A DNA stretch of 64,000 nt, taken from assembly GCA_001830425.1 (NCBI GenBank), contig MIAA01000016.1, positions 164,663 through 228,662 on the forward strand, written 5' to 3'. This document shows positions 24,743-51,419 of this stretch, piece after piece (position 1 is the first letter of the stretch; every line of letters begins with the position of its first letter). The translations under genes and the position numbers were made by a program. The notes beneath the pieces are model-generated. The model was not told the DNA's origin, did not search any database, and worked only from the letters and a program-made list of their open reading frames with translations. The DNA is from Rhodospirillales bacterium RIFCSPLOWO2_02_FULL_58_16 (GTDB lineage Bacteria > Pseudomonadota > Alphaproteobacteria > Rhodospirillales > 2-02-FULL-58-16).

Positions 24743-25137
24743 GCGGCGAAAGCCCCTTGATTCATTAGGGATATGAAAATTCAGGCGATCAGGCGAAAAA
24801 TCTTGACAAGGGAGGGGGACAACTGGAAAATCACAATCGCGTGAACTGGGGGGAGAAATCGCCCGATTTATATTAGATTGCGGAACTAGGTTCTTAAATA
24901 ATCGTAAGTAGTTCCACATTAATCGGGCCGGTATTTTTCTGCCGGCAAGTTATTGAAGTGTACAGGGCGTCAAGCGCCCTGTAGTTCGGGTTTTGATTAT
25001 TTTGCTGATAACTGGGGTTTAGACAATTCTGATGATCGATTTACGAGGGCGTTTTTCCGGTCGGCTTGATTAATTCCGGGACTGCGGCTTCACAGGAAGT
25101 AAAGGGAATTACTGTGCAATACAAAGGGGGTAAGAAC

Positions 25138-26919
25138 ATGCATGGAAAGTTAAGCAAGTTCATTTATAAGGGTCTTCTTCCGGGGATGCTTTTTTCAGTC
25201 GGCATCGCCGCTTCGGGGACTGCAAGCGCCGAATTGGCCAGCCAGGGCGGCGACCGCGACTGGTTGAACTATGACGGCGGCACGTCGACGACCGACTCGC
25301 CGACCATCGATCCGATGATCATGTACAACGCCGGCGGTCTTGACGGCAAAGTCGCCGTCATCGGCATTCCGTCGATGAGGACGTACCGTCACATCGATTG
25401 CGGCGTCGATCTTCATGAAATCCTGTTCGGCGGCTCCAACGCCGGCAACAAGAATTTCTCATCCAACGGAACGTTCGCCTACGTCAACGACAAGGGCGCC
25501 AACACCATCTGCGAAATCAATTTGCAGACCGGCATGTTGCAGCGGATAATGGCCATGCCGTTCCCGTTCGGTCTTCACCATATTACGATGGATCCCAAGG
25601 GTGAGTACCTGTACGGCTCCGGCGAGTACACCGGCAAGATGGCGAAGGTCGAGATCAAGTCCGGCAAGACCCAGATCATCGATTGGGGTCCTTCGCCCAG
25701 CGCTCCCGACTATCTGGACGCCGACAAGAAGGGCCGTTACATCTTCTCCGGCAACTACTACCACTCGACGGTCGGCGTTTTCTCCACCAACCCGTTCAAG
25801 TACATCAAGGAAATTCCGGTCGGCAAGAATCCGCACGGCACCGACGTGATCCCAGAGAGCACCAAGGTTATCGTCAGCGACAAGCTGTCGGCGACGATGA
25901 CGGTTATCGATGTTGAAAAGCTGGCGGTGATGAAGGTGTTCCCCACCTGCGCCGGTCCGCTTCACTCGGTGATGGACGTTTACAACAAGGACGGCGGTCC
26001 CTACCATCCCGGCAAGGACTCTCACGACGGCCTGACCTCGAAGTACGCTTATGAAAGCTGCTTCGTCGCCGACGCCAACGTGAAAATCGACCTTAACAAA
26101 CTTGAGGTGGTTGACGAAATCCCGACGCACTATCGCACGGGCCACATCATGATCAGCGCCGACAACAGCTACGTTTTCGCGCTGAACAAGTTCTCGACCG
26201 GCCTGTTCACTCCGACGGGCGTTGTTTACCCGGTTAACTTCGAGATGTGGGACGCCAGGGAAGCCAGTCCGACCTACGGCAAGACCCTGAAAATCATCCC
26301 CGTGGACGGCGAGCCTCATAACTCCAAGTCCATCTTCGGCGATCAGGTCAAGGACTGGACCATGGGCCAAGCCGAAAAGGGCGGGCTTATCAGCGCCTCG
26401 ACCCCGATGCTGGCTCCTGCTCACCGCTCCGGCGCGAAGATCACTTATCTGCCGAAGTCCACTGAAAAGCCCGGCGTTCGCACCGTGGACGGCGTAAAGG
26501 AACTCCACGTCAAGGCGTTCTCTTACGGCTATATCCCGCGTATGTTGAGGGTGAACAAGGGCGACAAGGTTCGCATCTTCGTCACCAACATCGACCAGGC
26601 GGCGGGCATCACCAAGAACCCTGACGTCACCATGGGCTTTTTGATCTATGGGCCGTATGGGCTTAAGACCAACCTTAGCCTGCCGCGCGGCATCACTGCG
26701 GTGACCGAGTTCGTCGCCGACATCGCCGGCGAGTACAGCGTCTTCTGTCAGCACTTCTGCGGTCCTCTGCACCTGGAAATGCGGGCGGAGTTCTTCGTGG
26801 ACGATACGGCGAAGGGACCGTCCAACCTGTCGGTAGGCGACTACGACAAGGCCCAGACTCTTCCGGGTCTGCTTGAGCCGGGTGAAATCACGATCAACAA
26901 GGTGGTTGACAGCCTCTAG
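25138..26919 (+). CDS. divergent NosZ-like copper protein: beta-propeller plus C-terminal CuA-type cupredoxin domain
   Basis: The ATG at 25138 follows AAAGGGGG and a Sec-type signal peptide follows. NosZ-like motifs appear in order: VIGIPSMRTY, GLHHIT, GKNPHGTDV, GPLHSV, THYRTGH, GEPHN, VTNID..DVTMGF, FCQHFCGPLHLEM (CX3CX3HX2M). See findings. Confidence 0.7.
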   Translation: MHGKLSKFIYKGLLPGMLFSVGIAASGTASAELASQGGDRDWLNYDGGTSTTDSPTIDPMIMYNAGGLDGKVAVIGIPSMRTYRHIDCGVDLHEILFGGSNAGNKNFSSNGTFAYVNDKGANTICEINLQTGMLQRIMAMPFPFGLHHITMDPKGEYLYGSGEYTGKMAKVEIKSGKTQIIDWGPSPSAPDYLDADKKGRYIFSGNYYHSTVGVFSTNPFKYIKEIPVGKNPHGTDVIPESTKVIVSDKLSATMTVIDVEKLAVMKVFPTCAGPLHSVMDVYNKDGGPYHPGKDSHDGLTSKYAYESCFVADANVKIDLNKLEVVDEIPTHYRTGHIMISADNSYVFALNKFSTGLFTPTGVVYPVNFEMWDAREASPTYGKTLKIIPVDGEPHNSKSIFGDQVKDWTMGQAEKGGLISASTPMLAPAHRSGAKITYLPKSTEKPGVRTVDGVKELHVKAFSYGYIPRMLRVNKGDKVRIFVTNIDQAAGITKNPDVTMGFLIYGPYGLKTNLSLPRGITAVTEFVADIAGEYSVFCQHFCGPLHLEMRAEFFVDDTAKGPSNLSVGDYDKAQTLPGLLEPGEITINKVVDSL

Positions 26920-40068: not shown

Positions 40069-40734
40069 ATGAGGTTTGTATTAGCTTTTTCCCTTGGAGT
40101 CGGGTTGGTTGTGATGTCGGCGTCGGCCGGCTTTGCGGACGGCGCCAAGGTTTTCGCCGACAAGGGTTGCGGCGGATGTCATTACACCGACGGTCCCGCC
40201 AAGGAGAAGACGATCGAGGATCAATTGGCGAAGAAAGGCCCCGAGCTTTGGTACGCCGGGTCCAAATTCAAGGGTGAATGGCTGGGCGCGTGGCTCGCCG
40301 ATCCCCAGCCGATTCGTCCGATGAAGTACAATTCCCTGACCGACAAGAATGCCGGGGATCATCCCAAACTCGCCGCCGCCGAAGCGGGCGAAGTCAAGGA
40401 TTTCCTGATGGGCCTGGTTTCGAAGGATGTTCCGGCCGGCGTGGTGACGCCAAAGAGCAACCCCCAGGGCAAACTGATCTTTATCAAGAAGATGCCGTGC
40501 AGCGGTTGTCACAAGTACCAGACCGGCGGAAAGCTCGTCGGCGGGAATACCGGCCCGTCGCTGGTTGACGCCGGGGTCAGGTTGAATCCGGACTGGATTT
40601 TGGCCTATCTGGCCAACGCGCAGGTCTTCAAGCCGGTTAAGGATATGCCTAATTTTGACGGCATCCTCAGCAAGCCGGATATGGAGAAGGTAGCAGCTCA
40701 CGTCGCCTCGTTTACGGCGGCGGACGCCAACTAG
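40069..40734 (+). CDS. dihaem c-type cytochrome
   Basis: 221 aa with a signal peptide, CGGCHY and CSGCHK. Confidence 0.8.
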   Translation: MRFVLAFSLGVGLVVMSASAGFADGAKVFADKGCGGCHYTDGPAKEKTIEDQLAKKGPELWYAGSKFKGEWLGAWLADPQPIRPMKYNSLTDKNAGDHPKLAAAEAGEVKDFLMGLVSKDVPAGVVTPKSNPQGKLIFIKKMPCSGCHKYQTGGKLVGGNTGPSLVDAGVRLNPDWILAYLANAQVFKPVKDMPNFDGILSKPDMEKVAAHVASFTAADAN

Positions 40735-40748
40735 GACAAAAGGGAGAT

Positions 40749-41120
40749 ATGAAAATGATCAGATCGGCAATCGTACTTACATTCGCCGTCGTCCTTTTGT
40801 CCGCCGGCGCAGCCAAGGCTGCGGACACCGAGACGATTTTCAAGTTCTACTGCGTCCAGTGCCACGGCGCCGCCGGCAACGGCGACGGCCCCAACGTCAG
40901 CCCCGATTTCCCGGTAACGCCGAGGAATTTCAACAAGGCCGACGAGATGGGCAAGCTGACGGACCTCGACATCAAGAACGTAATCAAGGAAGGCGGCCCG
41001 TCGGTCAGCAAATCGCCGATGATGCCGCCATGGGGCAAGACCCTTACCGACGGCGAGATCGACGGCTTGATCGTCAAGCTGCGCGCTTTCTGCAAGTGTA
41101 CGGGGCCTGCGGCTAAATAA
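40749..41120 (+). CDS. monohaem class I c-type cytochrome
   Basis: 123 aa with a signal peptide. YCVQCHGAAGNGDGP and SPMMPPWG are present. Confidence 0.85.
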   Translation: MKMIRSAIVLTFAVVLLSAGAAKAADTETIFKFYCVQCHGAAGNGDGPNVSPDFPVTPRNFNKADEMGKLTDLDIKNVIKEGGPSVSKSPMMPPWGKTLTDGEIDGLIVKLRAFCKCTGPAAK

Positions 41121-41162
41121 GATGATGATTTCCCCGGCGTTCCTCATCGGGCGCCGGGGAGG

Positions 41163-41267: not shown

Positions 41268-41488
41268 GATTTTAAAATTCCGACGGCTTGAATAAGTTGC
41301 CTGATGGGATGATGATAACAGAAGCTTTGATTTAAGAAAGGGTGCGCCGAATGGCTTCCGAACAAATTACCGAATGTGCCTGTACGGGCAGCACGCTGCC
41401 GGGGAAGCTTGTTTTTTTGGCGACTCTGATCGGCAGCATCGCATTTTTTATATGGTTTTTGAGGTATTAAGCAGGGGGCGGACGCATT

Positions 41489-41605
41489 ATGAAAAACTCT
41501 TTCGTTGTTTTTGTCCTGGCGTTTGTTGTTTTCGGCGTCGGTCTTTTCGGCCTGGATTACGCCTTGATGAGCGCCCAGGGCACCAATCTGTTTTTCCATA
41601 AGTGA
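41489..41605 (+). CDS. possible 38-aa single-TM peptide upstream of the CydA-like gene
   Basis: MKNSFVVFVLAFVVFGVGLFGLDYALMSAQGTNLFFHK, preceded by GCAGGGGGCGGACGCATT. Its position is reminiscent of small oxidase subunits. Confidence 0.35.
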   Translation: MKNSFVVFVLAFVVFGVGLFGLDYALMSAQGTNLFFHK

Positions 41606-41645
41606 GCAGGGTTCGTTTAAGTCTTTATCTTTGAGGGGAGCGAGC

Positions 41646-43565
41646 ATGAGGTCGTGTTTTACGGCGAGAAGGGGGGGGGCGCTGTTACTGTCGGCCGCCT
41701 TTCTGTTTTTGCTTTCTGTCGCTGTTTCGGGGCTTGGCGCCTCATCCGCTTCAGCCGCCGAGCAGGCGGCTGCCGAAAGCGGTAAGGCGGCGGTCGCCGA
41801 AGTAAAGGGCGCTCCCGGAGGAGAAGAGGCCGGGACGGCGGCGCCCGCCGAGGCGCCGGAAGCATCGGCCAACAAGCCTGCGCCGATGTTGACCAAGGCC
41901 GACTATCCGACGATAGCCGGCGTCAACGGGCGGATCATGGTGTGGATGGCGGCTCAGTTGCATCTCTGGTTCGCCGCCTTCGTGCTGGCGGTTCCCATCT
42001 TCGTTTTCATTATCGAAGCCATCGGCATGAAGACGCGGGACAAGCGTTATGACGATATGGCTTATGAATTCATCAAGGTCTCGATCACCGCTTATTCGCT
42101 GACGGCGATTCTCGGAGGCCTGACGGCGTTCAGTTTGATCCTGTTCTACCCGGCGGTGTTCGCCTATCTGGCCAACATCTTCAAAGAGACCATGTTCTAC
42201 TACGCGCTGTTGTTCTTCGCCGAGAGCGCCTGCCTTTATATTTACTATTACGGTTGGCACTGGTTGCAGGGCGGCAACAAAAAGTGGATACATTTGACTC
42301 TGGGTCTGTTGCTCAACGTCGTCGGCACGGTTTTGATGTTCCTGGCCAACGCCTGGATAACCTTCACCATGAGTCCGGTTCCCGCCCATGGGGTGGAAGG
42401 CCAGATCGTTGACGCCGTAGGCACCTTCGGCGGCGATGCCTGGCTGGCCATCCATAATTACCTGTGGAACCCGGTCAACCTGCATCGGGTGGTGGCCAAC
42501 GTCGCTTACGGCGGCTCGGTAGTCGGCGCCTACGCAGCGTACAACTTTCTCAGCGCCCGCACCGCCGAGGCCAAGGCCCACTACGACTGGATGGGATATA
42601 CGGCCAACTTCATCGCCGTTTCGGCGCTGTTGCCGCTGCCGTTCGCCGGCTACTATCTGGTCGCCGAGATTTACGCCTACAGCCAGCAGATGGGCATCAC
42701 CCTGATGGGCGGCATCTTCGCCTGGCTGTTCATCATCCAGGCGGTTTTGATCGGCACCCTGTTCCTGTCGGCCAACTATTACCTTTGGTGCGGCATGGGT
42801 CGCAGCGACGGCGCGGTGCGCTACAATAAATATATGAAATATCTGGCCATCGCCATCGTCGGCGCCTTCCTGGTGTGGTTCACGCCTCATACCCTGGTGT
42901 TGACCAACGAGGAACTGAAAGCGCTGGGCGGACCATACCACAAGTACCTTGGTCCGTTGGGCATCATGCCGGCGAAGAATACGGCGGTGAACATCATGAT
43001 TCTGGTTACGGCGATGAGCTTTATCATCTATCGCCGGGCCAACATGATCCCGGTGGTGTCGTGGGTGAAGGCGGGCAACGCCGCCCAGTTTGCGCTGTTT
43101 TCGGCGGGCATCATCAACATCGTCATTCTCGGCGTTTATCACGGCTACTTTACCGATACGGTGACCAAGGTCGCCGCTTCGGTGCCCCAGGTGTTGACTA
43201 CGCTGACCCTGATCGCCGTCAGTTCGATCATGGACAGCTTTATGTACAAAGGCGCCAAAGAGGTCGCGCCCCAGCGTTGGGGCCGGGTCTCCAACCGTTC
43301 CCAGTACGCGATGTTCATGCTGGCGGTGGCCTTTACCTGGTTGATGGGGCTGATGGGCTACATCCGCTCCGGCATTCGTCAGCACTGGCATGTAGTGAAC
43401 ATTTTCCGCGACAATTCAGAGAATGCGTTCACTCCGTCGCTGGGCTACGCCACCAACGTCATTTCGGTGGCGACTATCATTTTCATGTCGATGGTGATTT
43501 TTGTCTTCTGGCTGAGCAAACTCAGCGTCAAGAAGACGGTCCCGACCGGCTACTGGAAGGAATAG
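41646..43565 (+). CDS. CydA-like 'cytochrome bd-like' oxidase subunit I homologue, no adjacent CydB
   Basis: About 640 aa. It aligns by eye with E. coli CydA: QLHLWFAAFVLAVP (H19 region), YDDMAYEFIKVS, LLFFAESACLYIYYYGW (E99 region), MFLANAWITFTMSP, NPVNLHRVVANVAYGG (H186 region). It has an extra N-terminal signal/Ala-Glu-rich segment. Confidence 0.75.
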   Translation: MRSCFTARRGGALLLSAAFLFLLSVAVSGLGASSASAAEQAAAESGKAAVAEVKGAPGGEEAGTAAPAEAPEASANKPAPMLTKADYPTIAGVNGRIMVWMAAQLHLWFAAFVLAVPIFVFIIEAIGMKTRDKRYDDMAYEFIKVSITAYSLTAILGGLTAFSLILFYPAVFAYLANIFKETMFYYALLFFAESACLYIYYYGWHWLQGGNKKWIHLTLGLLLNVVGTVLMFLANAWITFTMSPVPAHGVEGQIVDAVGTFGGDAWLAIHNYLWNPVNLHRVVANVAYGGSVVGAYAAYNFLSARTAEAKAHYDWMGYTANFIAVSALLPLPFAGYYLVAEIYAYSQQMGITLMGGIFAWLFIIQAVLIGTLFLSANYYLWCGMGRSDGAVRYNKYMKYLAIAIVGAFLVWFTPHTLVLTNEELKALGGPYHKYLGPLGIMPAKNTAVNIMILVTAMSFIIYRRANMIPVVSWVKAGNAAQFALFSAGIINIVILGVYHGYFTDTVTKVAASVPQVLTTLTLIAVSSIMDSFMYKGAKEVAPQRWGRVSNRSQYAMFMLAVAFTWLMGLMGYIRSGIRQHWHVVNIFRDNSENAFTPSLGYATNVISVATIIFMSMVIFVFWLSKLSVKKTVPTGYWKE

Positions 43566-43569
43566 ACCG

Positions 43570-44385
43570 ATGAGACAGTTCCTTACGGTTATCGCATTCA
43601 GTCTTTTTGTAATCAGCTTTTTCGCCGGGTTCTCCAACTTCGGCATTCCGCAGATCGAGCCGGCGCCGCCGCCGGTGGCGGAGAAGCTCGACCTGGGGGC
43701 CATGACCATGGAGCAATTCGTGGCCTTGGGCGAAAAGGTTATTGACGGCAAGGGCACCTGCAAGCTGTGTCATAACAACCTGGGCCGGGCGCCGATGCTG
43801 GACCAACTGGGGGCCAACGTTCCCAAGCGGCTGGCCGATCCCGAATACAAGGGCAAGGCCAAGGACTTTCAGGGCTACCTGGAAGAGTCGATGACCCTGA
43901 CTTCGGCCTATGTGGTTCCCGGCTTCGGCAAGAAGGGCACCAACGACAAGGAAAGCCCGATGCCCGACGTTACTTCCGGCGCGATCAGCCTGTCAAAAGC
44001 GGAGTTTGCGGCGGTGATCGCCTATCTCCAGGAATCCAGCGGCGTCGAGATTACCGTTGAAATCCCCACCGATGCCGGCGGGACGGCGGCTGACGCCGGC
44101 GGCGGCGGCGAGGTCCGCGAGGCGTTGACGTCGGCTGATGACATTATCGCCGAATTCGGTTGCGGAGCCTGTCACATCATCGGCGAGAACGCCGGGGATA
44201 TCGGTCCCGACCTGTCCAAGGTAGGCGCCCGCAGCGACCGTGAATATCTCAGGCGTTCGCTGCTTAATCCCAATGCGGATATTGCAAAAGGTTTTGAGCC
44301 TGACACCATGCCCGCCGATCTGGGCGGTAAAATGTATGCGTCCGAAATCGAGGTGGTTCTCGATTATCTGGCCGGATTGAAGTAG
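43570..44385 (+). CDS. membrane-anchored dihaem c-type cytochrome
   Basis: 271 aa with an N-terminal TM segment, CKLCHN and CGACHI. Confidence 0.8.
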   Translation: MRQFLTVIAFSLFVISFFAGFSNFGIPQIEPAPPPVAEKLDLGAMTMEQFVALGEKVIDGKGTCKLCHNNLGRAPMLDQLGANVPKRLADPEYKGKAKDFQGYLEESMTLTSAYVVPGFGKKGTNDKESPMPDVTSGAISLSKAEFAAVIAYLQESSGVEITVEIPTDAGGTAADAGGGGEVREALTSADDIIAEFGCGACHIIGENAGDIGPDLSKVGARSDREYLRRSLLNPNADIAKGFEPDTMPADLGGKMYASEIEVVLDYLAGLK

Positions 44386-44398
44386 GAGGACGGGAGCG

Positions 44399-45163
44399 AT
44401 GAAAAGACTGATCCAACTTGTCCTTACCGTCTTCGGCGTCTACCTGGGCTTTGTCGTGGTCTTTGACCATCTGCTCGGTCAGGTGATCCCGTCGAGTCTG
44501 CTGCTGATGTACATGTTCTTTGTGTGCGCCGGCGTGTTCATGGTGTTCACCTTCACCGAAGAAAGCATGAACCAACTGACGGCGCCGATCAAGGCGCTGG
44601 TCGAGGACCCGTCCAAGAAAATGGTGCGCAACGTGGTGTTCCTGCTGGTTCCGTTGGCGGTGGGTTATTACACCTACTCCAAGATGGTTCCCAGCTTTGA
44701 GGCTCCGGTGGAGTTGAGGACCATCCATCCGGCGCCGCCGGCGGCGGTGAAGGCTTACGGCAAGCGCTATAACCTGCTGACTCTGGCTAATCCGTTCCGC
44801 AAGCTCAAAAAGGACGACCCGAAAAAGTTCGAGGCTTTGGTCGCCGAGGGCGGCATGGTCTATGTCAAGAATTGCCAGTATTGCCATGGCGACAAACTGG
44901 ACGGTCGCGGGCCGTATGCCGAGGGCCTGAACCCGACGCCGGCCAACTTCCAGGACGTCGGCACCATCGCCCAGCTTCAGGAGGCGTACTTGTTCTGGCG
45001 CATCACCACCGGCGGTCCCGGACTTCCGTCCGAGGCGACGCCGTGGATTTCGGCGATGCCCGTATGGCAGGACTTCCTGAGCGAGGAAGAAGTATGGAAG
45101 GTGATTCTGTATCTTTATGAGTACACCGGCTACAGCCCGAGATCATGGGAAAAAAGTGAGTAA
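44399..45163 (+). CDS. polytopic membrane protein with C-terminal monohaem c domain
   Basis: 254 aa with three N-terminal TM helices. NCQYCHGDKLDGRGP and SAMPVW are present. Confidence 0.75.
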   Translation: MKRLIQLVLTVFGVYLGFVVVFDHLLGQVIPSSLLLMYMFFVCAGVFMVFTFTEESMNQLTAPIKALVEDPSKKMVRNVVFLLVPLAVGYYTYSKMVPSFEAPVELRTIHPAPPAAVKAYGKRYNLLTLANPFRKLKKDDPKKFEALVAEGGMVYVKNCQYCHGDKLDGRGPYAEGLNPTPANFQDVGTIAQLQEAYLFWRITTGGPGLPSEATPWISAMPVWQDFLSEEEVWKVILYLYEYTGYSPRSWEKSE

Positions 45164-45200
45164 GCGGATGATAAGTTTCATGCACAGGGGTGGTAATCCG

Positions 45201-46724
45201 ATGAGGATCGTGGCGCTGACGGCGTTGGGTCTGTTGCTTATGGCGCCGCCGGCGTCAGCCAAGGGAGACAAGGGCAACGGCGAAATCGTCTATAAAAAGC
45301 GGTGCGTGTGGTGCCATGGCGAAGAGGGCGACGGCGCCGGCGCCGGGGGCGAGATGACCAAGATAATTAACCCGCCGCCTCGGGATTTCACGTCGGGCAT
45401 GTTCAAGATCAAGACCTCGCCGTTCGGCTCGGATTTTCCCAATGACGCCGACATCTACCGCATGATCAGCGACGGCATGCCGGGAACGGTGATGCCGGGA
45501 TGGAAGTCGATCCTCAAAGAGCCGGAGATGTGGGACCTGGTGGCCTATATCAAGACCTTCGCCGAACTGGAAGCCGAACCCGGCAAGACGGTGGATTACG
45601 GAACCCAGGTCAAGACCTCTCCCGAAAGCATCGAAAAGGGGTCCAAGCTGTTCCATGACGGTGATCGTTGCTCCGAATGCCACGGCGCCGAGGGCAAGGG
45701 TAACGCCATCAAAGCGCTGAAAGGCGATAACGGCGAGCGCACCTGGCCGAGGAATCTGACCAAGCCGTGGACGTTCCGCGCCTCCAACGATCCCAAGGAA
45801 ATCTTTACCCGCGTTTCGACCGGCATTTCCGGCACCCAGATGCCGTCGTTTGACGATCCCAAGAGCAACAAAAAGTTGACGGTCGAGGAACGCTGGCATG
45901 TCGCCAACTACGTCAACTCGCTGGCCAAGACCGACAAGACGGTGAAGGCCGAGAACACGGTGGTCAAGGCCGACAAGGTCGCCGGCGACCTGCCCGCCGA
46001 TACCGCTGATCCGGCGTGGGACAAACCGACGCCCTCGACTTTCCTGCTGGTGCCGCAGGTTATCTACAAGGATCGCGTTTTCTCGTCGGCCAACGACACC
46101 ATCACGGCCCGCGCCATGTTTAACGACAAGGAAGTGGCCATCCTGCTGGAATGGGACGACCGCACCAAAAGCATTCCCGGCGACAAGGACGCCGTCAAGA
46201 TCGCCAATCCCGAAATGGGACCGGATCGGGTGGCCGTGCAGTTGCCGATCGCCATCCCGGAAGGCATGAAAAAGCCCTACTTCATCAAGGGCGATACCGC
46301 CAACCCGGTTAATCTGTGGTCGTGGAGTTCGGGAACCGCCGAGGCTGCGGAAAGCGTCGGCCTCGGCAACGGAACCGGCGTTGACGCCGTCGAAGAACGT
46401 GACGCGGCGGCAGTCGGCCTGACCGCCAAGGGCGTCTACAAGGACGGCACCTGGCGGGTGATGATGAAACGCCCGCTGACCGCAGGCAACGCGGAGACCG
46501 ACATTCAGTTCCAGGAAGGCCGCTTTATTCCCATCGCTTTCCAGAGTTGGGACGGATCGAGCAGCGAAATCGGAAGCAAGCACACGCTGACCACATGGTA
46601 CTGGATTCTGCTGAAACCGGCCTCCAGCAACAAACCGCTGATTGTCGGCCTGATTCTGGCCTTGTTGGTGTTCGCCGCCGAAATAATGTGGGCGCGTTCA
46701 GCCGGTAAAAACAAAGACGCTTAA
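45201..46724 (+). CDS. dihaem cytochrome c fused to an EB_dh (type II DMSO-reductase gamma-subunit-like haem b) domain and C-terminal TM anchor
   Basis: CVWCHGEEGDG and CSECHGAEGKG are followed by ARAMFNDKEVAILLEWDD...DRVAVQLPIAI...WRVMMKRPL...IAFQSWDGS, which is typical of ethylbenzene-dehydrogenase/NxrC-like haem-b domains. The track ORF begins at 45117. Confidence 0.65.
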   Translation: MRIVALTALGLLLMAPPASAKGDKGNGEIVYKKRCVWCHGEEGDGAGAGGEMTKIINPPPRDFTSGMFKIKTSPFGSDFPNDADIYRMISDGMPGTVMPGWKSILKEPEMWDLVAYIKTFAELEAEPGKTVDYGTQVKTSPESIEKGSKLFHDGDRCSECHGAEGKGNAIKALKGDNGERTWPRNLTKPWTFRASNDPKEIFTRVSTGISGTQMPSFDDPKSNKKLTVEERWHVANYVNSLAKTDKTVKAENTVVKADKVAGDLPADTADPAWDKPTPSTFLLVPQVIYKDRVFSSANDTITARAMFNDKEVAILLEWDDRTKSIPGDKDAVKIANPEMGPDRVAVQLPIAIPEGMKKPYFIKGDTANPVNLWSWSSGTAEAAESVGLGNGTGVDAVEERDAAAVGLTAKGVYKDGTWRVMMKRPLTAGNAETDIQFQEGRFIPIAFQSWDGSSSEIGSKHTLTTWYWILLKPASSNKPLIVGLILALLVFAAEIMWARSAGKNKDA

Positions 46725-46726
46725 GC

Positions 46727-48187
46727 ATGGCCATAGCGCCGCAGGCTTCTTTTGTCGAGGCGCCGCCGGAGGACGAGTCCGGTCGGTTCAAACGCATTCT
46801 GGTGGCGTTGGACGCTTCCGACCATGCCGACCGGGCGCTGGCGGAGGCGCTGAGGCTGGTCAATACGTCCGATGGCGTCATCATCGGCATCCATGCCTAC
46901 GCCGCTAAACTTCATGACCGTCGCTTCCGCCAGATGGAAGGCGGTCTGCCGGAGCGCTATCTCGAAGAACAGGAGATGGAGCGCCAGCGCGAGGTTCATG
47001 ACAGCCTGATCACCCGTGGCCTTGACATCATCAGCGACAGTTATCACGACGCCGCCGAACGTTCCTGCAAGGAAGCCGGCCGGCCTTACCAACGCCTCAG
47101 CCCGGAAGGAAAGAATTACCGGCGGATTGTGGAAGCCGTGGAAAACGGCGACTACAGCCTTTTGGCGCTCGGCGCCCTGGGCCTGGGCGGCATTCCGGGC
47201 AGCGTGATCGGCTCCGTCTGTGAGCGGGTGGTCCGGCGCAGCGCCATTGATGTGTTGGTCATCCGCGATCCGGAAAGGGCTATCGGCGACGGCCCCGTCG
47301 TCGTCGGCGTGGACGGCTCGGCGCAGTCCTTCGGGGCGCTGAAAACCGGCTTTGCGATCAGCCGTCGGCTGGGGATTCCGCTTCACGCGGTGGCGGCTTA
47401 CGATCCTTATTACCATTATGTGGCCTTCAACAAGATCGCCGGCGTGCTCAGCGACGAGGCCGGCAAGGTGTTCCGCTTCAAGGAGCAGGAAAAACTTCAC
47501 GAGGAGCTTATCGACGACGGCCTCGCCAAGATTTATCAGGCGCATCTGGAAGTCGCCCGCGTCATGGCCGAGGAAGAAGGCGTTAAACTTACCCTTGAAT
47601 TGCTTGACGGCAAGCCGTACCGGGCGATTGCCGATTACCTGGGAAAAGTCGGGGCAAGCCTGCTGATAATCGGCAAGATCGGCATTCACGCCGATTCCTA
47701 CCTTGATATCGGCGGCAACGCCGAGAACCTGCTGCGGACGGCGCCCTGCCATGTATGGCTCGGGCGGACGACTTATGTCCCGCCGCTGGACGTAGTCGCC
47801 GAGGAAACCATGACCTGGAGCAACGAAGCCGAAGAGATGCTCAACCGGGCGCCGGAATTCGCTCGCGGCATGGCGCGCACGGCGGTGATGAGGCTGGCCC
47901 AGGACAGCGGCCACACCTTCATTACCAGGAGCATGGTGGAAGAGGTCGCCAAAAAATTAATGCCGGGAGGCGGCGGCGGAAAGTGTCCTTATTCAGGCCA
48001 AGACAAGGAGAAGGCAAAGCAGGAACTTACCTGGACCGATGAGGCGACGGCTCTGGTCGAGGGGCTGAATGACAAGGCCCTGGCCGGCAATATCCGCCTG
48101 CGCGCTGAAAAGTCGGCCCATCGCGAGGGGAGGGAGAAAGTAAAGGCCGTTGATGTCCTGAAGTTTCTTGACGGCGGCGGGGAATAG
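46727..48187 (+). CDS. tandem universal-stress-protein domains fused to two PCP_red-like domains
   Basis: 486 aa with two USP modules (ILVALDASDHADRAL...; VVVGVDGSAQS...). Two repeats follow of the type W..EAE..L.R.P.F.R......V (MTWSNEAEEMLNRAPEFARGMART; LTWTDEATALVEGL), as in the BchB/ChlB C-terminal domain. Confidence 0.6.
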   Translation: MAIAPQASFVEAPPEDESGRFKRILVALDASDHADRALAEALRLVNTSDGVIIGIHAYAAKLHDRRFRQMEGGLPERYLEEQEMERQREVHDSLITRGLDIISDSYHDAAERSCKEAGRPYQRLSPEGKNYRRIVEAVENGDYSLLALGALGLGGIPGSVIGSVCERVVRRSAIDVLVIRDPERAIGDGPVVVGVDGSAQSFGALKTGFAISRRLGIPLHAVAAYDPYYHYVAFNKIAGVLSDEAGKVFRFKEQEKLHEELIDDGLAKIYQAHLEVARVMAEEEGVKLTLELLDGKPYRAIADYLGKVGASLLIIGKIGIHADSYLDIGGNAENLLRTAPCHVWLGRTTYVPPLDVVAEETMTWSNEAEEMLNRAPEFARGMARTAVMRLAQDSGHTFITRSMVEEVAKKLMPGGGGGKCPYSGQDKEKAKQELTWTDEATALVEGLNDKALAGNIRLRAEKSAHREGREKVKAVDVLKFLDGGGE

Positions 48188-48192
48188 AGGCC

Positions 48193-49470
48193 GTGGCGAC
48201 CGCAAAACATCCTTTTCTGGTGGCCCTGAACCTGACGCGGCGCTGTAACCTGAATTGCGGCCATTGCTATCTCGACGCCGGCGTCCGCAGGCGCGGCGAT
48301 AATGAACTTTCCACCGCCGAGGTGAAGGCGGTTCTTGACGGCATCGCCTCGTTGAGCGACGAAACCATGGTCGTGTTGACCGGCGGCGAGCCGATGATGC
48401 GGGCCGATGTTCCTGAACTGGCCCGTCACGCCCATAGCCTGGGCCTGATGGCGGTGGTGGGAACCAACGGCACGATGCTGGATGACGGGCGGGTGGCGGA
48501 GCTGAAAGAATCGGGGGTGCAGGGCGTCGGGGTCAGCCTGGATTCTCTCAATCCCGGGCATCATGACGCTTTTCGCGGCCTGTCCGGCGCCTGGGACAAG
48601 ACGATGGCGTCCATCGAAGCCTGCCGGCGCGGCGGCCTCGGGTTTCAGATTCATTTTTCGGTCACCGACGACAACGCCGACGAACTGGACGATATGATCG
48701 CCTTCGCCAAGTCGTCCGGCGCGTTGGTTCTGAATGTCTTTTTTCTGGTATGCACCGGACGCGGCGAGAAGGCGACCAATATCTCCCATGATGTCTACGA
48801 GCGGGTTCTGAGAAAGGTCACCAGGGCCGCTCATGATGAACAGGAATTGATCGTGCGGGCCAAATGCGCTCCGCACTTCAAGCGCATGGCGATGGAACTG
48901 GACCCGGCATGGCCGATTACCCTGGCCCACGGCTATGAGGCGGGAGGATGTCTGGCCGGAACCCGCTATTGCCGGGTCACGCCGGAAGGCGAAGTAACGC
49001 CCTGTCCCTATATGGAGAACTCCGCCGGCTCCGTCCGCGACCGGGGTTTCGCCGAAATATGGCGCAATGCGCCGCTGTTCAAGGCGCTGCGGACGCCGAA
49101 GCTGGAGGGCCGCTGCGGGAAATGCGAGTATATGAAAATTTGCGGCGGCTGCCGGGCGCGTCCCCAGGCGCGGAGCGGCGGGCTTATGGAGGAGGACTTC
49201 CTGTGCGACTACCAACCAAAAGGCGGCGCGGTGATCGAGCCGCAGCAGGAGGGGGCGGCGGCGCTTCCGTGGTCTGTGGAGGCCGAGGCGCGGTTGAAAA
49301 GGGCGCCTTCCTTCCTGCGCCGGATGATCCGCAAGCGCACCGAGGACTACGCCCGCGACAACGGACATGCTATGGTGACCGTTGACGATATGCAAAAGCT
49401 GATGAAGCGGCGTTTCGGAAATGCCGGGCCGCGTATGAAAATACCGGGGAGGACGGGCGTTGACGGTTGA
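48193..49470 (+). CDS. radical SAM/SPASM enzyme of the NirJ/AhbC/AhbD type with C-terminal PCP_red-like domain
   Basis: CNLNCGHCY cluster motif, LTGGEP, VFFLVCTGRG, and the C-terminal Cys cluster CGKCEYMKICGGCRAR are present. These are followed by LPWSVEAEARLKRAPSFLRRMIRKRTEDYA. Confidence 0.7.
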   Translation: MATAKHPFLVALNLTRRCNLNCGHCYLDAGVRRRGDNELSTAEVKAVLDGIASLSDETMVVLTGGEPMMRADVPELARHAHSLGLMAVVGTNGTMLDDGRVAELKESGVQGVGVSLDSLNPGHHDAFRGLSGAWDKTMASIEACRRGGLGFQIHFSVTDDNADELDDMIAFAKSSGALVLNVFFLVCTGRGEKATNISHDVYERVLRKVTRAAHDEQELIVRAKCAPHFKRMAMELDPAWPITLAHGYEAGGCLAGTRYCRVTPEGEVTPCPYMENSAGSVRDRGFAEIWRNAPLFKALRTPKLEGRCGKCEYMKICGGCRARPQARSGGLMEEDFLCDYQPKGGAVIEPQQEGAAALPWSVEAEARLKRAPSFLRRMIRKRTEDYARDNGHAMVTVDDMQKLMKRRFGNAGPRMKIPGRTGVDG

Positions 49471-50845
49471 TGCGGCGATTATCGGAGGAGGCATCTCCGG
49501 GCTGGCCTGCGCCTGGGACCTGAAGCGTCGCGGCCGGCGGGTGGTGGTGCTGGAGCGCCAGGCCGATCCCGGCGGCAGCGCCTGTTCGGAGCGCCTCGGC
49601 GGCGGCTTCCTGATGGAGCACGGGCCGAGCACGGTCAACGCCGGTTCCGACATCGCCAATGATTTCTCCGGGATGCTTGGGCTTAACGGCGAACGCTGCA
49701 ACCTCGGCGGCGGCGTGCGGCGGCGCTATCTGGTCGGCGGCGGCGTCCTTCGCGGCCTGTCGGTAAGTTCCATGGGCTTTTTCCTTTCCGGATACATGTC
49801 CCTTAGGGGAAAGCTGCGTCTGCTCGGCGAGTTTGCGGTTCCCGCCGCCGCCGACGGCAAGGAAGAAACGGTGGCGGAGTTCTGCGTTCGCCGGTTCGGC
49901 CCGGAGTTTCTGGAACGGATTATTGATCCCATGGTCGCCGGCATTTATGCCGGACGCGCCGACGAGCTTTCCGTCTCCGCCGTGTTTCCCAAGCTGGTCG
50001 AACTGGAGCAGAAGTACGGCGCCGTTTCACGCGGGTTGCTGCGCCGTCACAAGCGCGGCGTCAGGATGCCGAGCAGCCGTCTGTTTTCCTGGCAGGACGG
50101 CATTGCTTCTCTTCCCCGCGCCCTCGCCGCCGACCTCGGCGAGGCGGTGCGCGCCGGGATCACGGTGCGCGGGCTTCAGGCGGTTTCCGGCGGATTCAAG
50201 GTGGATGCGGGTCCGGCGGGGGCGTTCGCCGCAAGGTCGGTGATTATCGCCACCCAGCCTCATGTGGCGGCGCGGCTGCTGGAAGGCGTCGACAATGACG
50301 CCGCCTGCGCCGCCGGAGAAATTGACGCGCCGCCGTTGGCCGTAGCCTTTTTCGGCTTTGAACGCCGGCAGGTGGATCATCCGCTTGACGGCCTCGGCTT
50401 CCTGACGTCCCGCAAGGAAGGGCGCTCGTTGAGCGGCGCTCAATTTTGCTCCACCATGTTTCCCGGACGCGCCCCGGAGGGACATGTCGGCGTCGCCGGA
50501 TATCTCGGCGGCGCCAGGTCGCCGGAACTGGCGAGACTGCCGAGAGAGGAACTGCTCGATCTGGCGCTCGAAGATTTCCGCAAGCTGATCGGCGTCAAGG
50601 GAGAGCCTGTGGTTGCCCAGGTGCGGCACTGGCCGCTGGGCCTGCCGCAATACAGGATCGGCCACCAGGAGCGCACGACTTGTCTGAAAAATGCCGGTCA
50701 GCGCCGGCCCGGCCTGTTCGTTACCGGAAATTATTTTCACGGCCCCTCGGTCGCCTCCTGTTTGGCCATGTCGAGGGAAACCGCCTCCGGCGTTCACGGC
50801 TTTCTTGACGAAATCCGGCCCGCCGACCGGAGCGCGGTATTATAA
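49460..50845 (+). CDS. hemY: HemY-type FAD-dependent protoporphyrinogen/coproporphyrinogen oxidase
   Basis: 461 aa. It has the AAIIGGGISGLACAW dinucleotide fold and PGLFVTGNYFHGPSV at the C-terminus. Confidence 0.75.
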   Translation: MTVDAAIIGGGISGLACAWDLKRRGRRVVVLERQADPGGSACSERLGGGFLMEHGPSTVNAGSDIANDFSGMLGLNGERCNLGGGVRRRYLVGGGVLRGLSVSSMGFFLSGYMSLRGKLRLLGEFAVPAAADGKEETVAEFCVRRFGPEFLERIIDPMVAGIYAGRADELSVSAVFPKLVELEQKYGAVSRGLLRRHKRGVRMPSSRLFSWQDGIASLPRALAADLGEAVRAGITVRGLQAVSGGFKVDAGPAGAFAARSVIIATQPHVAARLLEGVDNDAACAAGEIDAPPLAVAFFGFERRQVDHPLDGLGFLTSRKEGRSLSGAQFCSTMFPGRAPEGHVGVAGYLGGARSPELARLPREELLDLALEDFRKLIGVKGEPVVAQVRHWPLGLPQYRIGHQERTTCLKNAGQRRPGLFVTGNYFHGPSVASCLAMSRETASGVHGFLDEIRPADRSAVL

Positions 50846-51416: not shown

Positions 51417-51419
51417 GGC

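What the first reader, a model, noticed from the sequence alone, without database searches (positions are those of the whole stretch)
41489..46724. CydA-like 'bd-like' oxidase without CydB, co-operonic with four c-type cytochrome domains and an EB_dh haem-b protein
The 41646 product aligns by eye with CydA through the haem-ligand regions (H19-, E99- and H186-equivalents in LHLWF, FAES and NLHRVV). It is about 640 aa, has an N-terminal secreted Ala/Glu-rich extension, and is not followed by a CydB or CydX gene. Instead it is followed, with 4-37 nt gaps, by a dihaem c, a three-TM monohaem c, and a dihaem c fused to an ethylbenzene-dehydrogenase-gamma/NxrC-like haem-b domain with a TM anchor. Possibly a 38-aa TM peptide precedes it. 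Canonical bd oxidases take electrons from quinol, not from cytochrome c. CydA-like proteins in similar cytochrome-rich contexts have been proposed, from genome analysis of nitrite oxidisers such as Nitrospira, to be novel terminal oxidases, but they remain biochemically uncharacterised. Finding one in an alphaproteobacterial background next to a NosZ-like enzyme is unusual.
Basis: partly seen in the sequence, partly recalled or inferred. Interest (0 to 1): 0.7.

Follow-up and report, generated by a model that had tools for sequence, protein, structure and literature searches.

The report
Cytochrome-c-linked bd-like oxidase gene cluster
This is a real, highly conserved operon for a "bd-like" respiratory membrane complex: a CydA relative with no CydB and no quinol site, plus eight c-haems and a haem-b subunit. 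The type was already described by genome analysis in nitrite oxidisers, is common in low-oxygen Proteobacteria, and still has no measured function.

Summary
The gene at 41631/41646-43565 encodes a 13-TM CydA-like protein with a signal peptide. There is no CydB, no Q-loop and no second CydA in the window. It is followed at 2-37 nt gaps by a dihaem c, a TM monohaem c and a dihaem c-EB_dh-TM protein.

It matches every signature residue published for the OR-N2 subfamily of the cytochrome bd superfamily (Murali et al. 2021), whose operons carry several cytochromes c and an EbdC homologue. The same architecture is called TO_1 in Ca. Manganitrophus and bd-like_3/alt_NxrC_2 in Nitrospira. It is therefore a new member of a known but biochemically uncharacterised kind.

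- The FAES Glu is the E107 equivalent; E99 is Tyr191.
- The conserved unit is larger. It starts with two periplasmic cytochromes c (40069-41120), has a second small TM peptide (41342-41470), and often continues into a Usp/AhbD-NirJ-like radical SAM/HemY-like trio (46727-50845).
- It is not unusual in Proteobacteria: 322 GTDB species genomes encode a relative, and the 80 best are 68-79% identical.

The adjacency to the NosZ-like gene, which is a clade III L-NosZ, recurs in several gene orders. That is the most interesting new lead. The most likely function is a cytochrome c:O2 oxidoreductase for low oxygen; this is inferred, not shown.

The parts
40069..40734 (+). Periplasmic dihaem cytochrome c (221 aa, signal peptide, CxxCH at 34 and 144). 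First gene of the conserved core and the probable soluble electron donor.
   Evidence: Pfam Cytochrom_C/Cytochrome_CBB3. Present upstream in the same order in 53/55 loci. Both CxxCH motifs and Met114/Met193 are >=95% conserved.
40749..41120 (+). Periplasmic monohaem cytochrome c (123 aa, signal peptide, CxxCH at 35).
   Evidence: Pfam. Present in 54/55 loci. CxxCH and Met92 are conserved.
41342..41470 (+).
   Evidence: The motif W-x-G-P-x-L-F...F-F-x-W-F is found between the monohaem c gene and the CydA-like gene in >=70/77 loci, and in 0/77 on the reverse-strand control. TM at residues 20-36.
41489..41605 (+).
   Evidence: The motif [LIVMF]-D-x3-4-M-x2-3-[QHNMR]-G-[LT] is present just upstream of the CydA-like gene in 77/77 loci.
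41631..43565 (+). CydA-like OR-N2 protein (644 aa from TTG 41631; 639 aa from ATG 41646). It has a signal peptide, an Ala/Glu-rich periplasmic linker and 13 TM helices. Key residues are H111, Y191, E198, H221, H285, M446, S580 and W586, plus the extra conserved residues H317, H420, H437 and H587.
   Evidence: Pfam PF01654 over the N-terminal half only. PDB sequence hits only to CydA. Foldseek top 10 are all CydA. Signature residues. Helix count from AF2/DSSP and hydropathy.
43570..44385 (+). Membrane-anchored dihaem cytochrome c (271 aa, N-terminal TM).
   Evidence: Present in 55/55 loci.
44399..45163 (+). Polytopic (2-3 TM) monohaem cytochrome c (254 aa).
   Evidence: Present in 55/55 loci at 66-76% identity.
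45201..46724 (+). Dihaem cytochrome c (Kuenenia Kustc0457-type) fused to an EB_dh haem-b domain and a C-terminal TM anchor. The alternative upstream ATG at 45117 overlaps the previous gene.
   Evidence: Pfam EB_dh 81.9 bits (cut-off 33.3) plus two cytochrome c domains. PDB 6h5l_B E 7e-40 and EbdC 2ivf_C E 4e-7. Present in 55/55 loci. Ligand positions.
46727..48187 (+). Tandem Usp domains plus a PCP_red (BchB C-terminal-like, tetrapyrrole-associated) domain. Starts 2 nt after the EB_dh gene.
   Evidence: Pfam. Directly downstream on the same strand in 30/47 loci with >=9 kb of downstream sequence.
48193..49470 (+). Radical SAM/SPASM protein of the AhbD/NirJ2 group with a C-terminal PCP_red domain. 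Candidate haem-tailoring enzyme.
   Evidence: NCBIfam AhbD 315.7 and NirJ2 316.3 bits, both below the 500 cut-offs. Pfam. Downstream in 29/47 loci.
49460..50845 (+). HemY-type protoporphyrinogen/coproporphyrinogen oxidase-like flavoprotein.
   Evidence: TIGR00562 232.8 bits, cut-off 97.85. Downstream in 25/47 loci.
25066..26919 (+). Associated, not core: clade III lactonase-type N2O reductase (L-NosZ). Its own cluster of cyt b, propellers, cyt c and NosFY-like ABC genes runs to about 37288.
   Evidence: NCBIfam NF052460 742 bits, cut-off 700. Pfam for the neighbours. Recurrent linkage with the OR-N2 cluster.

Best explanation
The region encodes a multi-subunit, cytochrome-c-linked 'bd-like' respiratory complex of the OR-N2 / TO_1 type.

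The proposed electron path is as follows. Electrons enter from the periplasm through two soluble cytochromes c (40069-41120). They pass along a membrane-anchored haem wire made of the dihaem c subunit, the polytopic monohaem c subunit, and the dihaem c + EB_dh haem-b subunit. They then reach the low-spin haem of the CydA-like subunit (ligands H285/M446, the b558 position) and finally the catalytic haem bound at H111 (the H19 position).

Protons for the chemistry come from the cytoplasm through the retained part of the CydA proton channel (E198 = E107, H221 = H126). Reduction of the acceptor, most probably O2 to water at very low oxygen, would therefore build membrane potential by charge separation without a quinol site and without CydB. 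Two small single-TM peptides encoded just upstream are probable structural subunits.

Shown:
- gene content, order and conservation;
- family membership;
- presence or absence of the listed residues.

Inferred:
- subunit assembly;
- direction of electron flow;
- O2 as the acceptor;
- energy conservation.
For: Classification:
- Pfam CydA hit over the N-terminal half only.
- The only PDB relatives are CydA chains.
- All signature positions tabulated for OR-N2 match: H19->H111, E99->Y191, E107->E198, F114/F116->Y205/Y207, H126->H221, S140->L235, N148->I243, H186->H285, M393->M446/N450, E445->S580, W441->W586.
- Glu at the E107 position separates it from an OR-N1-type paralogue, which has Gly there and is 32% identical.
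- A neighbour-joining tree places it beside OR-N2-context proteins.
- Murali's supplement describes OR-N2 operons as having multiple cytochromes c plus an EbdC homologue.

Function:
- H111, E198, H221, H285 and M446 are invariant in 55 sequences. That fits a proton-coupled catalytic haem site rather than a passive wire.
- All eight CxxCH motifs and candidate Met ligands are conserved.
- Signal peptides and anchors place every haem domain in the periplasm.
- No molybdoenzyme or quinol-oxidising subunit is part of the conserved core.
- Hosts are overwhelmingly from oxygen-minimum zones and oxic-anoxic interfaces: Saanich Inlet, ETNP, Arabian Sea and Black Sea MAGs, Zetaproteobacteria, Gallionellales and Magnetococcales.
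- In relatives, the equivalent clusters are among the most highly expressed genes. TO_1 is at the 98th percentile in Ca. Manganitrophus, and bd-like_3/alt_NxrC_2 is in the top 40 genes in N. moscoviensis.
- A Nitrospinae-bin variant inserts two MrpD/NuoL-like antiporter subunits, which points to an energy-converting complex.
Against: - No member of the OR-N family has been purified or assayed, and the literature still calls its O2 affinity unknown.
- The E445 ligand of the third haem is Ser and E99 is Tyr, so the canonical di-haem O2 site and proton path are not intact.
- The AF2 model is poor (pLDDT 61), so the geometry of the extra conserved His residues could not be examined.
- The recurrent linkage with L-NosZ and with a haem-tailoring-like trio could point to a substrate other than O2.
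- Lücker et al. 2013 favoured a non-oxidase role for the NXR-linked paralogue.
- No FNR-type box or other regulatory evidence was found upstream.
Confidence: 0.55

Rival explanations
1. The complex reduces a nitrogen oxide, or is the dedicated electron-transfer or oxygen-scavenging partner of the neighbouring clade III N2O reductase (L-NosZ), rather than being a general O2 reductase.
For: - L-NosZ (NF052460, 742 bits) lies 16.5 kb upstream on the same strand.
- It lies within 10 kb of the cluster in 8/80 genome loci.
- Reciprocally, the OR-N2 cluster sits next to L-NosZ in 8/28 metagenome loci, including 5 of the 7 with >=7 kb on both sides.
- The linkage occurs in at least four different gene orders, some of them interleaved (Zetaproteobacteria L029/L069/L070; L062/L097/L112).
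- The Usp/radical-SAM/HemY trio sometimes follows L-nosZ directly (L098, L100, L110, L111).
Against: - Of the OR-N2 loci with both flanks >=9 kb, 30 of 35 have no L-NosZ nearby, so the complex has a function independent of L-NosZ.
- L-NosZ has its own cytochrome b and cytochrome c genes.
- Nitrospirota and Manganitrophaceae relatives are aerobes that use these complexes without NosZ.
Confidence: 0.17
2. It is a cytochrome c:quinone oxidoreductase or electron hub, like an alternative complex III. It would be used for reverse (uphill) electron transport in lithotrophs, with no terminal-acceptor chemistry.
For: - This role was proposed for the NXR-linked bd-like protein of Nitrospina, Nitrospira and anammox bacteria.
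- Many hosts are Fe- or S-oxidising autotrophs (Zetaproteobacteria, Gallionellales, Acidiferrobacteraceae).
- The MrpD-containing variant could use membrane potential to drive uphill transfer.
Against: - No quinol/quinone-site residues or Q-loop are present; the Pfam match ends at profile position 227 and TM helices replace the loop.
- The active-site His and proton-channel Glu/His are invariant, which a pure wire would not need.
- Many hosts are labelled Rhodospirillales, Rhodobacteraceae or Hyphomicrobiales, which are probably heterotrophs.
Confidence: 0.13
3. It is a membrane anchor and electron acceptor for a periplasmic type II DMSO-reductase-family enzyme (NXR-like), docking through the EB_dh (NxrC/EbdC-like) subunit.
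For: - The EB_dh domain is homologous to EbdC (2ivf_C, E 4e-7) and to the TIGR03477 gamma subunits (95.9 bits).
- In Nitrospira the equivalent protein is named alt_NxrC.
Against: - No molybdopterin catalytic or FeS subunit gene is found in the window near the cluster.
- None appears among the recurrent neighbour families in 80 loci.
- The TIGR03477 score is below its cut-off of 169.85.
Confidence: 0.05
4. It is an ordinary quinol-oxidising cytochrome bd or CIO subunit I whose CydB was missed, as public annotations suggest ('cytochrome ubiquinol oxidase subunit I').
For: Database names given by sources and the Pfam PF01654 hit.
Against: - There is no CydB or second CydA anywhere in the window.
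- There are 13 TM helices instead of 9, no Q-loop, and Ser and Tyr at the E445 and E99 positions.
- Identity to solved CydA chains in the Foldseek alignments is only 11-17%.
- The cytochrome-c context is conserved in 55/55 loci.
Confidence: 0.02

Closest known systems
[quoted passage not shown]
   Same: - '14 TM' (13 TM plus the signal peptide), no quinol site, no CxxCH in the CydA-like protein.
- Identical signature residues at all tabulated positions.
- Operon with several cytochromes c and an EbdC homologue.
   Different: - This is a tight proteobacterial clade: 68-82% identity within the clade, but only 36-49% to the other OR-N2-like representatives, which include sequences labelled Nitrospira/Manganitrophaceae and from a Nitrospinae bin.
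- No OR-N1 partner and no Rieske/cytochrome b genes are in the core, unlike the Nitrospira-type locus L085.
- It has two or three conserved small TM peptides and a frequent haem-biosynthesis-like trio. I did not find either described in the papers I could search.
TO_1 complex of Ca. Manganitrophus noduliformans, and the bd-like_3 + alt_NxrC_2 + two membrane cytochromes c cluster of Nitrospira moscoviensis, Nitrospina gracilis and Kuenenia
   Same: - Same parts list: a bd-like protein, two membrane cytochromes c, and a periplasmic haem-b (EB_dh/CISM gamma-type) subunit with a membrane anchor.
- These clusters are highly expressed in those organisms.
   Different: - Here the cluster is not next to NXR genes.
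- The EB_dh protein carries an N-terminal Kustc0457-type dihaem c domain.
- Two extra soluble cytochromes c are part of the unit.
- Orthology to 'clade I' bd-like proteins was not tested, because those sequences could not be retrieved.
Canonical cytochrome bd quinol oxidase (CydABX; qOR1-3)
   Same: - Homologous first five or so helices.
- His ligand of the catalytic haem, His/Met ligands of the low-spin haem, and the E107 and H126 proton-channel residues.
- Small single-TM accessory peptides also exist in canonical bd (CydX/CydH), by analogy only.
   Different: - No CydB, no Q-loop or quinol site.
- Extra TM helices.
- E99->Tyr and E445->Ser.
- The electron donor is inferred to be cytochrome c.
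cbb3-type cytochrome c oxidase (functional analogue only)
   Same: A membrane catalytic subunit served by mono- and dihaem c subunits (CcoO/CcoP-like Pfam hits), occurring in micro-aerophiles.
   Different: The catalytic subunit is unrelated (haem-copper superfamily), and no HCO domain is present here.
OR-C family (cytochrome bd relatives with fused c-haems)
   Same: Lacks the quinol site, and cytochrome c is inferred as the donor.
   Different: OR-C proteins have 8 TM and CxxCH motifs within the CydA-like protein. The window protein has none, although some relatives (P0121, P0122, P0138) have a C-terminal cytochrome c fusion.

Membership tests
Cytochrome bd superfamily (CydA fold, Pfam PF01654) | Significant match to the CydA profile or to solved CydA structures | tested here: met
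   PF01654 58.7 bits against a cut-off of 26.2, residues 101-336 only. PDB 9r2g_A E 1.7e-11 and 5doq_A E 6e-5. Foldseek top 10 are all CydA with probability 1.0, but TM-score is only about 0.24 because the model is poor.
Cytochrome bd superfamily | His19-equivalent ligand of the active-site haem | tested here: met
   H111 aligns with H21 of Geobacillus CydA and is invariant in 55 sequences.
Canonical quinol bd oxidase (qOR) | Periplasmic Q-loop or quinol-binding site between TM6 and TM7 | tested here: not met
   The Pfam alignment ends at profile position 227 of 418. The model has TM helices with only a 3-residue loop at that place. The same is described for bd-like proteins.
Canonical quinol bd oxidase (qOR) | CydB (subunit II) encoded adjacently | tested here: not met
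   The next gene is a dihaem cytochrome c 4 nt downstream. A family profile finds no paralogue in any six-frame ORF of the window. There is no internal N/C-half similarity.
Canonical quinol bd oxidase (qOR) | Glu99 and Glu445 (proton channel; haem b595 ligand) | tested here: not met
   Tyr191 and Ser580 occupy these positions; Glu107 is kept as E198.
OR-N2 (Murali et al. 2021) | 14 predicted TM helices and no CxxCH in the CydA-like protein | tested here: met
   An N-terminal signal/anchor helix plus 13 TM helices. No CxxCH.
OR-N2 (Murali et al. 2021) | Signature residues of the reference TKS59798.1: H99, Y183, E190, Y197, Y199, H213, L227, I235, H269, M430/N434, S563, W569 | tested here: met
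   The window protein has H111, Y191, E198, Y205, Y207, H221, L235, I243, H285, M446/N450, S580 and W586. Spacing is the same except for one 8-residue insertion before H285. A homologue labelled Nitrospira sp./Manganitrophaceae (P0271) shows the same register.
OR-N2 versus OR-N1 | Glu (N2) versus Gly (N1) at the E107 position | tested here: met
   E198 is present. The OR-N1-type paralogue of locus L085 has Gly there and is 32% identical, against 45% for the OR-N2-context protein P0128 of the same locus.
OR-N2 (Murali et al. 2021) | Operon with multiple cytochromes c and an EbdC (EB_dh) homologue | tested here: met
   Conserved in 55/55 loci.
OR-C | Haem c motif(s) inside the CydA-like protein, 8 TM | tested here: not met
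   No CxxCH, and 13 TM.
Type II DMSO-reductase gamma subunit (EbdC/NxrC/SerC) | EB_dh domain with haem-b axial ligands (Met108/Lys201 in EbdC) and a partner Mo-enzyme | tested here: inconclusive
   - The Pfam EB_dh match is above its cut-off, but TIGR03477 scores 95.9 against a cut-off of 169.85.
- The Met position is Met in 57/72 orthologues but Lys391 in this protein.
- The Lys position is His489 in 64/72 orthologues.
- No Mo-enzyme genes are nearby.
Haem-copper-like site proposed for the Nitrospira bd-like oxidase (Lücker 2010, as cited) | Cluster of conserved His residues able to bind Cu near the catalytic haem | not testable with these tools
   - Extra His residues (H420, H437, H587) are conserved widely on the inferred periplasmic side.
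- A Sco1/SenC-like gene sits inside the cluster in 6 loci.
AhbD / NirJ radical SAM haem-modifying enzymes (gene 48193-49470) | Score above the equivalog cut-off | tested here: inconclusive
   AhbD 315.7 and NirJ2 316.3 bits, both below 500. It is a related but distinct member, with an added PCP_red domain.
Clade III lactonase-type NosZ (gene 25066-26919) | NCBIfam equivalog NF052460 above its cut-off | tested here: met
   742 bits against a cut-off of 700, covering the whole profile.

The most novel reading that the evidence does not exclude
The proteobacterial OR-N2 module is not just another O2 reductase. Together with the co-transcribed Usp-PCP_red / AhbD-NirJ-like radical SAM / HemY-like trio, and in some lineages a Sco1 copper chaperone, it may assemble a catalytic site with a custom-modified haem and possibly copper.

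It would form one respiratory island with the clade III N2O reductase. In that island it could serve as the energy-coupling electron module of L-NosZ, as its oxygen guard, or as a new kind of NO/N-oxide reductase upstream of it.
Probability: 0.15. Interest if true: 0.8.

Novelty: new member of a known kind. Interest (0 to 1): 0.45.

Why it matters
The bd-like (OR-N) proteins are the presumed main terminal oxidases of Nitrospira, Nitrospina-type nitrite oxidisers and manganese oxidisers. None has ever been purified, and their substrate, haem type, metal content and oxygen affinity are unknown.

The same complex turns out to be very common and very conserved in Proteobacteria of oxygen-minimum zones, iron mats and groundwater. 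Two things follow:
- A large share of micro-aerobic respiration in these habitats may run through an enzyme that current marker-gene surveys label as 'cytochrome bd quinol oxidase' or ignore.
- Proteobacterial versions may be easier to express or to find in culture than those from nitrite oxidisers.

The recurrent physical linkage with the recently recognised clade III N2O reductase, and with a haem-tailoring-like gene trio, gives two concrete and testable leads. I did not find either in the literature I could search.

Tried and rejected
- **CydB or a second CydA.** A family HMM searched against all six-frame ORFs of the window, and a BLAST of the N-half against the C-half, found nothing.
- **Operon boundaries.** Promoter and terminator scans gave fewer hits than shuffled controls and nothing usable inside 40069-50845. 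The only strong terminator lies after rpsI at 51970.
- **FNR/NnrR-type box** (TTGAT-N4-ATCAA, up to 2 mismatches). No hit in the 39782-40068 intergenic region.
- **AF2 model** of the CydA-like protein from 55 close homologues. pLDDT was only 61 and pTM 0.52. Foldseek confirms CydA as the nearest fold, but TM-scores (~0.24) are too low for any geometric argument.
- **The closest labelled Nitrospirota homologue** (P0271, labelled Nitrospira sp./Manganitrophaceae). It sits next to a NuoF-like gene without cytochromes, so it is a different sub-type and not a useful context model.
- **Homology of the small peptides.** The 38-aa peptide gave no CydX/YbgT match in Pfam, only a weak DUF3464 hit below cut-off.
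- **He et al. 2025 (Nature, L-NosZ).** Not held in the library, so I could not check whether the OR-N2 linkage is already mentioned there.
- **Literature searches** combining bd-like with Zetaproteobacteria, Gallionellaceae, Magnetococcus or Alpha/Gammaproteobacteria. No paper discusses this proteobacterial clade.
- **Cultured hosts.** No cultured isolate was found among the named homologues.
- **Rejected reading: ordinary CioA/CydA quinol oxidase.** See the rival explanations.

Full report
**Source and observation**

The window comes from the MAG 'Rhodospirillales bacterium RIFCSPLOWO2_12_FULL_58_28'. The deposited 639-aa protein P0001 is 100% identical to the product of 41646-43565. A two-piece alphaproteobacterial tmRNA at 56366-56723 confirms the alphaproteobacterial background.

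Pfam confirms the following:
- a CydA match restricted to residues 101-336 of the 644-aa protein (profile positions 3-227 of 418);
- cytochrome c domains in the three downstream proteins;
- an EB_dh domain in the last of them.

CxxCH motifs lie at residues 64/198, 159 and 63/185, which makes five c-haems rather than four. A family profile finds no other CydA-like ORF in any frame of the window, and there is no CydB.

**Anatomy of the CydA-like protein**

Hydropathy and the AF2/DSSP helix map give an N-terminal signal peptide, an Ala/Glu-rich linker and 13 TM helices. I read the probable cleavage site, around ASA/AE, from the sequence. Anchoring the topology on canonical CydA (N-terminus outside) puts H111, H285, H420, H437, M446 and H585/H587 on the periplasmic side, and H221 and H317 on the cytoplasmic side. 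This placement is an inference.

The HMMER alignment to Geobacillus CydA (5doq_A) puts H111 on H21, Tyr191 on E101 and E198 on E108. The M. smegmatis bd-II alignment (9r2g_A) puts H285 on the TM5 His.

The helices that follow TM6 replace the Q-loop, exactly as Lücker et al. 2013 described for bd-like proteins.

**Family placement**

Murali, Gennis and Hemp (2021) divide the superfamily into qOR, OR-C and OR-N. Their supplement states that OR-N2 proteins have 14 TM helices and sit in operons with multiple cytochromes c and an EbdC homologue. It also lists signature residues for a Nitrospira reference sequence.

The window protein matches all of them in register: H111, Y191, E198, Y205, Y207, H221, L235, I243, H285, M446/N450, S580 and W586.

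An exhaustive HMMER search of 1.84 billion cluster representatives found 981 clusters at E<=1e-3. Full-length relatives include:
- a protein labelled Nitrospira sp./Manganitrophaceae, 37% identical;
- a protein from a Nitrospinae-labelled bin, 44% identical;
- P0128, 45% identical.

P0128 lies in a locus with an OR-N1-type paralogue, a Rieske protein and a cytochrome b, which is the Nitrospira-type arrangement. That OR-N1-type paralogue is only 32% identical to the window protein and has Gly at the E198 position, which is Murali's OR-N1 signature.

A neighbour-joining tree rooted on that paralogue nests the window protein in a tight proteobacterial clade beside the other OR-N2-like groups. No OR-N structure exists. 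The only PDB relatives by sequence or fold are canonical CydA chains.

**Distribution and synteny**

The family is large. 5780 protein clusters score E<=1e-5, and the best 120 are 71-82% identical. 322 GTDB species genomes encode a relative. The best 80 are labelled as follows:
- Rhodospirillales, Thalassospiraceae, Kiloniellales, Hyphomicrobiales, Rhodobacteraceae;
- Gammaproteobacteria, Acidiferrobacteraceae, Arenicellales;
- Zetaproteobacteria/Mariprofundus;
- Magnetococcales;
- Gallionellales, Nitrosomonadales, Casimicrobiaceae.

Many come from oxygen-minimum zones.

tblastn of the window's proteins against these loci shows a fixed core order: dihaem c, monohaem c, CydA-like, dihaem c, TM-monohaem c, dihaem c-EB_dh. 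In the 55 loci with enough sequence the counts are 53, 54, 55, 55 and 55. The unit therefore begins at 40069, not 41489.

**New details of the unit**

A second small TM peptide, at 41342-41470 in the window, is conserved in >=70/77 loci (0/77 on the reverse-strand control). A motif for a third peptide, absent from the window, matched in about 29/77 loci; no control was run for that motif.
2. *Downstream trio.* The gene 2 nt after the EB_dh gene starts a trio:
   - Usp-PCP_red;
   - a radical SAM/SPASM-PCP_red protein related to AhbD/NirJ2 (316 bits, below the 500 cut-offs);
   - a HemY-type oxidase.

   The trio follows the core on the same strand in 25-30 of the 47 loci that have >=9 kb of downstream sequence.
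3. *Tandem paralogue.* 43/80 loci carry a second, paralogous OR-N2 cluster about 7.3-8 kb upstream in most of them (35-47% identity in most). From the loci inspected it includes a ~720-aa CydA-like protein, a cupredoxin-like protein and a HEAT-repeat protein; the last two are read from the sequences, not from a profile search. It is absent from this window.
4. *Copper chaperone.* Six loci have a Sco1/SenC-like gene (CPDICP motif, read from the sequence) inside the cluster.
5. *Antiporter variant.* A Nitrospinae-bin variant inserts two MrpD/NuoL-like antiporter subunits. It resembles the TO_2 complex of Manganitrophaceae.
6. *EB_dh protein.*
   - Its N-terminal dihaem domain is of the Kuenenia Kustc0457 type (6h5l_B, E 7e-40). 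I identify that chain as Kustc0457 from my own knowledge; one search shows only that 6H5L is a K. stuttgartiensis HAO-type structure.
   - The EbdC Met108 position is Met in 57/72 orthologues but Lys in this protein.
   - The EbdC Lys201 position is His in 64/72 orthologues.

**Link to the NosZ-like gene**

The 617-aa protein at 25066-26919 is a clade III lactonase-type N2O reductase (NF052460, 742 bits against a cut-off of 700). It has its own cytochrome b, propeller proteins, cytochrome c and NosFY-like ABC genes.

L-NosZ lies within 10 kb of the OR-N2 cluster in 8/80 genome loci, or 5/35 of those with both flanks complete.

In the reverse direction, 28 metagenomic loci encode close L-NosZ relatives, and 8 of them contain the OR-N2 cluster. 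These include 5 of the 7 loci with >=7 kb on both sides. The other two have the window-like order, in which the cluster would lie beyond the 10-kb flank.

The two gene sets occur in at least four arrangements, some of them interleaved. In several loci the Usp/radical-SAM/HemY trio follows L-nosZ directly. L-NosZ of this clade usually comes with OR-N2, whereas OR-N2 usually occurs without L-NosZ nearby.

**Mechanism**

What is shown:
- Eight conserved c-haem sites and one EB_dh domain are all predicted to be periplasmic or membrane-anchored.
- The CydA-like subunit keeps the catalytic-haem His, the His/Met pair of the low-spin haem, and the E107/H126 part of the proton channel. All are invariant in 55 sequences.
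- It lacks the quinol site, CydB, E99 and E445.
- No Mo-enzyme or quinol-oxidising subunit is part of the core.

What I infer: a cytochrome c:acceptor oxidoreductase with periplasmic electron entry and cytoplasmic proton uptake. O2 at very low concentration is the most likely acceptor, for three reasons:
- the host ecology;
- the very high expression of equivalent clusters in Nitrospira and Ca. Manganitrophus, which lack or barely express other oxidases;
- the antiporter-containing variant.

I put about 0.9 on the classification and about 0.55 on the O2-reductase function. The rivals are an N-oxide or L-NosZ-coupled role (0.17), a quinone-linked reverse-electron hub (0.13), an anchor for an NXR-like enzyme (0.05), and an ordinary quinol oxidase (0.02).

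**Novelty**

The kind is known from comparative genomics. It appears in Lücker 2010/2013 (as cited), in Murali 2021, in the Manganitrophaceae comparative-genomics preprint, and in Nitrospirales comparative genomics from 2025. It has not been characterised biochemically or structurally.

This locus is a new member. In the papers I could search, I did not find four features described: the proteobacterial clade's extended operon, the small peptides, the haem-tailoring-like trio and the L-NosZ linkage. The L-NosZ paper itself could not be read.

Noticed in passing
window 25066-37288 (+): A complete clade III (lactonase-type) N2O reductase island. It holds L-NosZ (NF052460 above its cut-off), an unannotated 182-aa ORF, a cytochrome b (27535-28167), a 224-aa ORF, two Vgb_lyase/NHL beta-propeller proteins, a cytochrome c (31131-32087), NosF/NosY-like ABC genes, a GldG-like auxiliary protein and a DUF4340 protein. 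There are no NosD/NosL/NosR hits.
   Followed up: partly
window 25066-26919 versus 40069-46724; loci L004, L009, L024, L029, L033, L062, L069, L070, L088, L089, L093, L097, L099, L108, L109, L112: L-nosZ and the OR-N2 cluster are physically linked in at least four different gene orders across Zetaproteobacteria, Magnetococcales, Casimicrobiaceae-type and Rhodospirillales genomes. In some Zetaproteobacteria the OR-N2 cluster lies between L-nosZ and its ABC/GldG genes.
   Followed up: yes
It is conserved in >=70/77 related loci. In about 29/77 loci a motif for a third small TM ORF ('...DGVIFSGMLVN...') also matches upstream; that peptide is absent from this window.
   Followed up: yes
window 46727-50845 (+): A tightly packed trio (gaps of 2 and 5 nt, then an overlap of 11 nt): Usp-Usp-PCP_red, an AhbD/NirJ2-like radical SAM/SPASM protein with a PCP_red domain, and a HemY-type oxidase. 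Two proteins carry the tetrapyrrole-associated BchB C-terminal domain. This suggests a dedicated haem-modification or oxygen-independent haem-b route tied to the complex.
   Followed up: partly
window 38612-39781 (+): A 7-TM cytochrome b (N-terminal PetB-like domain) with a C-terminal CxxCH. It lies just upstream of the cluster, preceded by a Peripla_BP_6 binding protein. It is not part of the conserved core; only weak paralogue hits occur in 4/80 loci.
   Followed up: partly
loci L003, L005, L013, L019, L023, L031, L040 and others (43/80), about 7.3-8 kb upstream of the main CydA-like gene in most: A tandem paralogous OR-N2 cluster, absent from this window. It holds a HEAT-repeat protein, a cupredoxin-like protein with C-x2-H-x2-M or a cytochrome c, a ~720-aa CydA-like protein with two extra TM helices, a dihaem c, a TM monohaem c and a c-EB_dh protein. 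The HEAT and cupredoxin labels are read from the sequences only.
   Followed up: partly
L003 9065-9772, L005 9149-... (6 loci): A Sco1/SenC-type copper chaperone gene (CPDICP motif, read from the sequence) lies between the monohaem c gene and the CydA-like gene. This is a hint that copper is involved, as proposed for the Nitrospira bd-like oxidase.
   Followed up: no
L084 6851-18424 (vent metagenome bin labelled Nitrospinae): A TO_2-like cluster: dihaem c, monohaem c, a CydA-like protein fused to cytochrome c, two MrpD/NuoL-like antiporter subunits, a cytochrome c-EB_dh protein, a dihaem c and a cytochrome b. The Manganitrophaceae preprint states that TO_2 had not been found outside that family.
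   Followed up: no
window 45201-46724, residue 391 (535-aa numbering): This genome's EB_dh subunit has Lys where 57/72 orthologues have Met, the position of the EbdC haem ligand Met108. The second ligand position is His in the family instead of the Lys of EbdC.
   Followed up: partly
window 56366-56723 (-), 1447-3550 (-), 50952-51938 (+): Housekeeping context: a two-piece alphaproteobacterial tmRNA (tag ANDNEAFAVAA), hemH and hemE, and two ORFs directly after the HemY-like gene that I take to be rplM-rpsI (not checked with any tool). The island is chromosomal, and GC content is unremarkable (0.53-0.64).
   Followed up: partly
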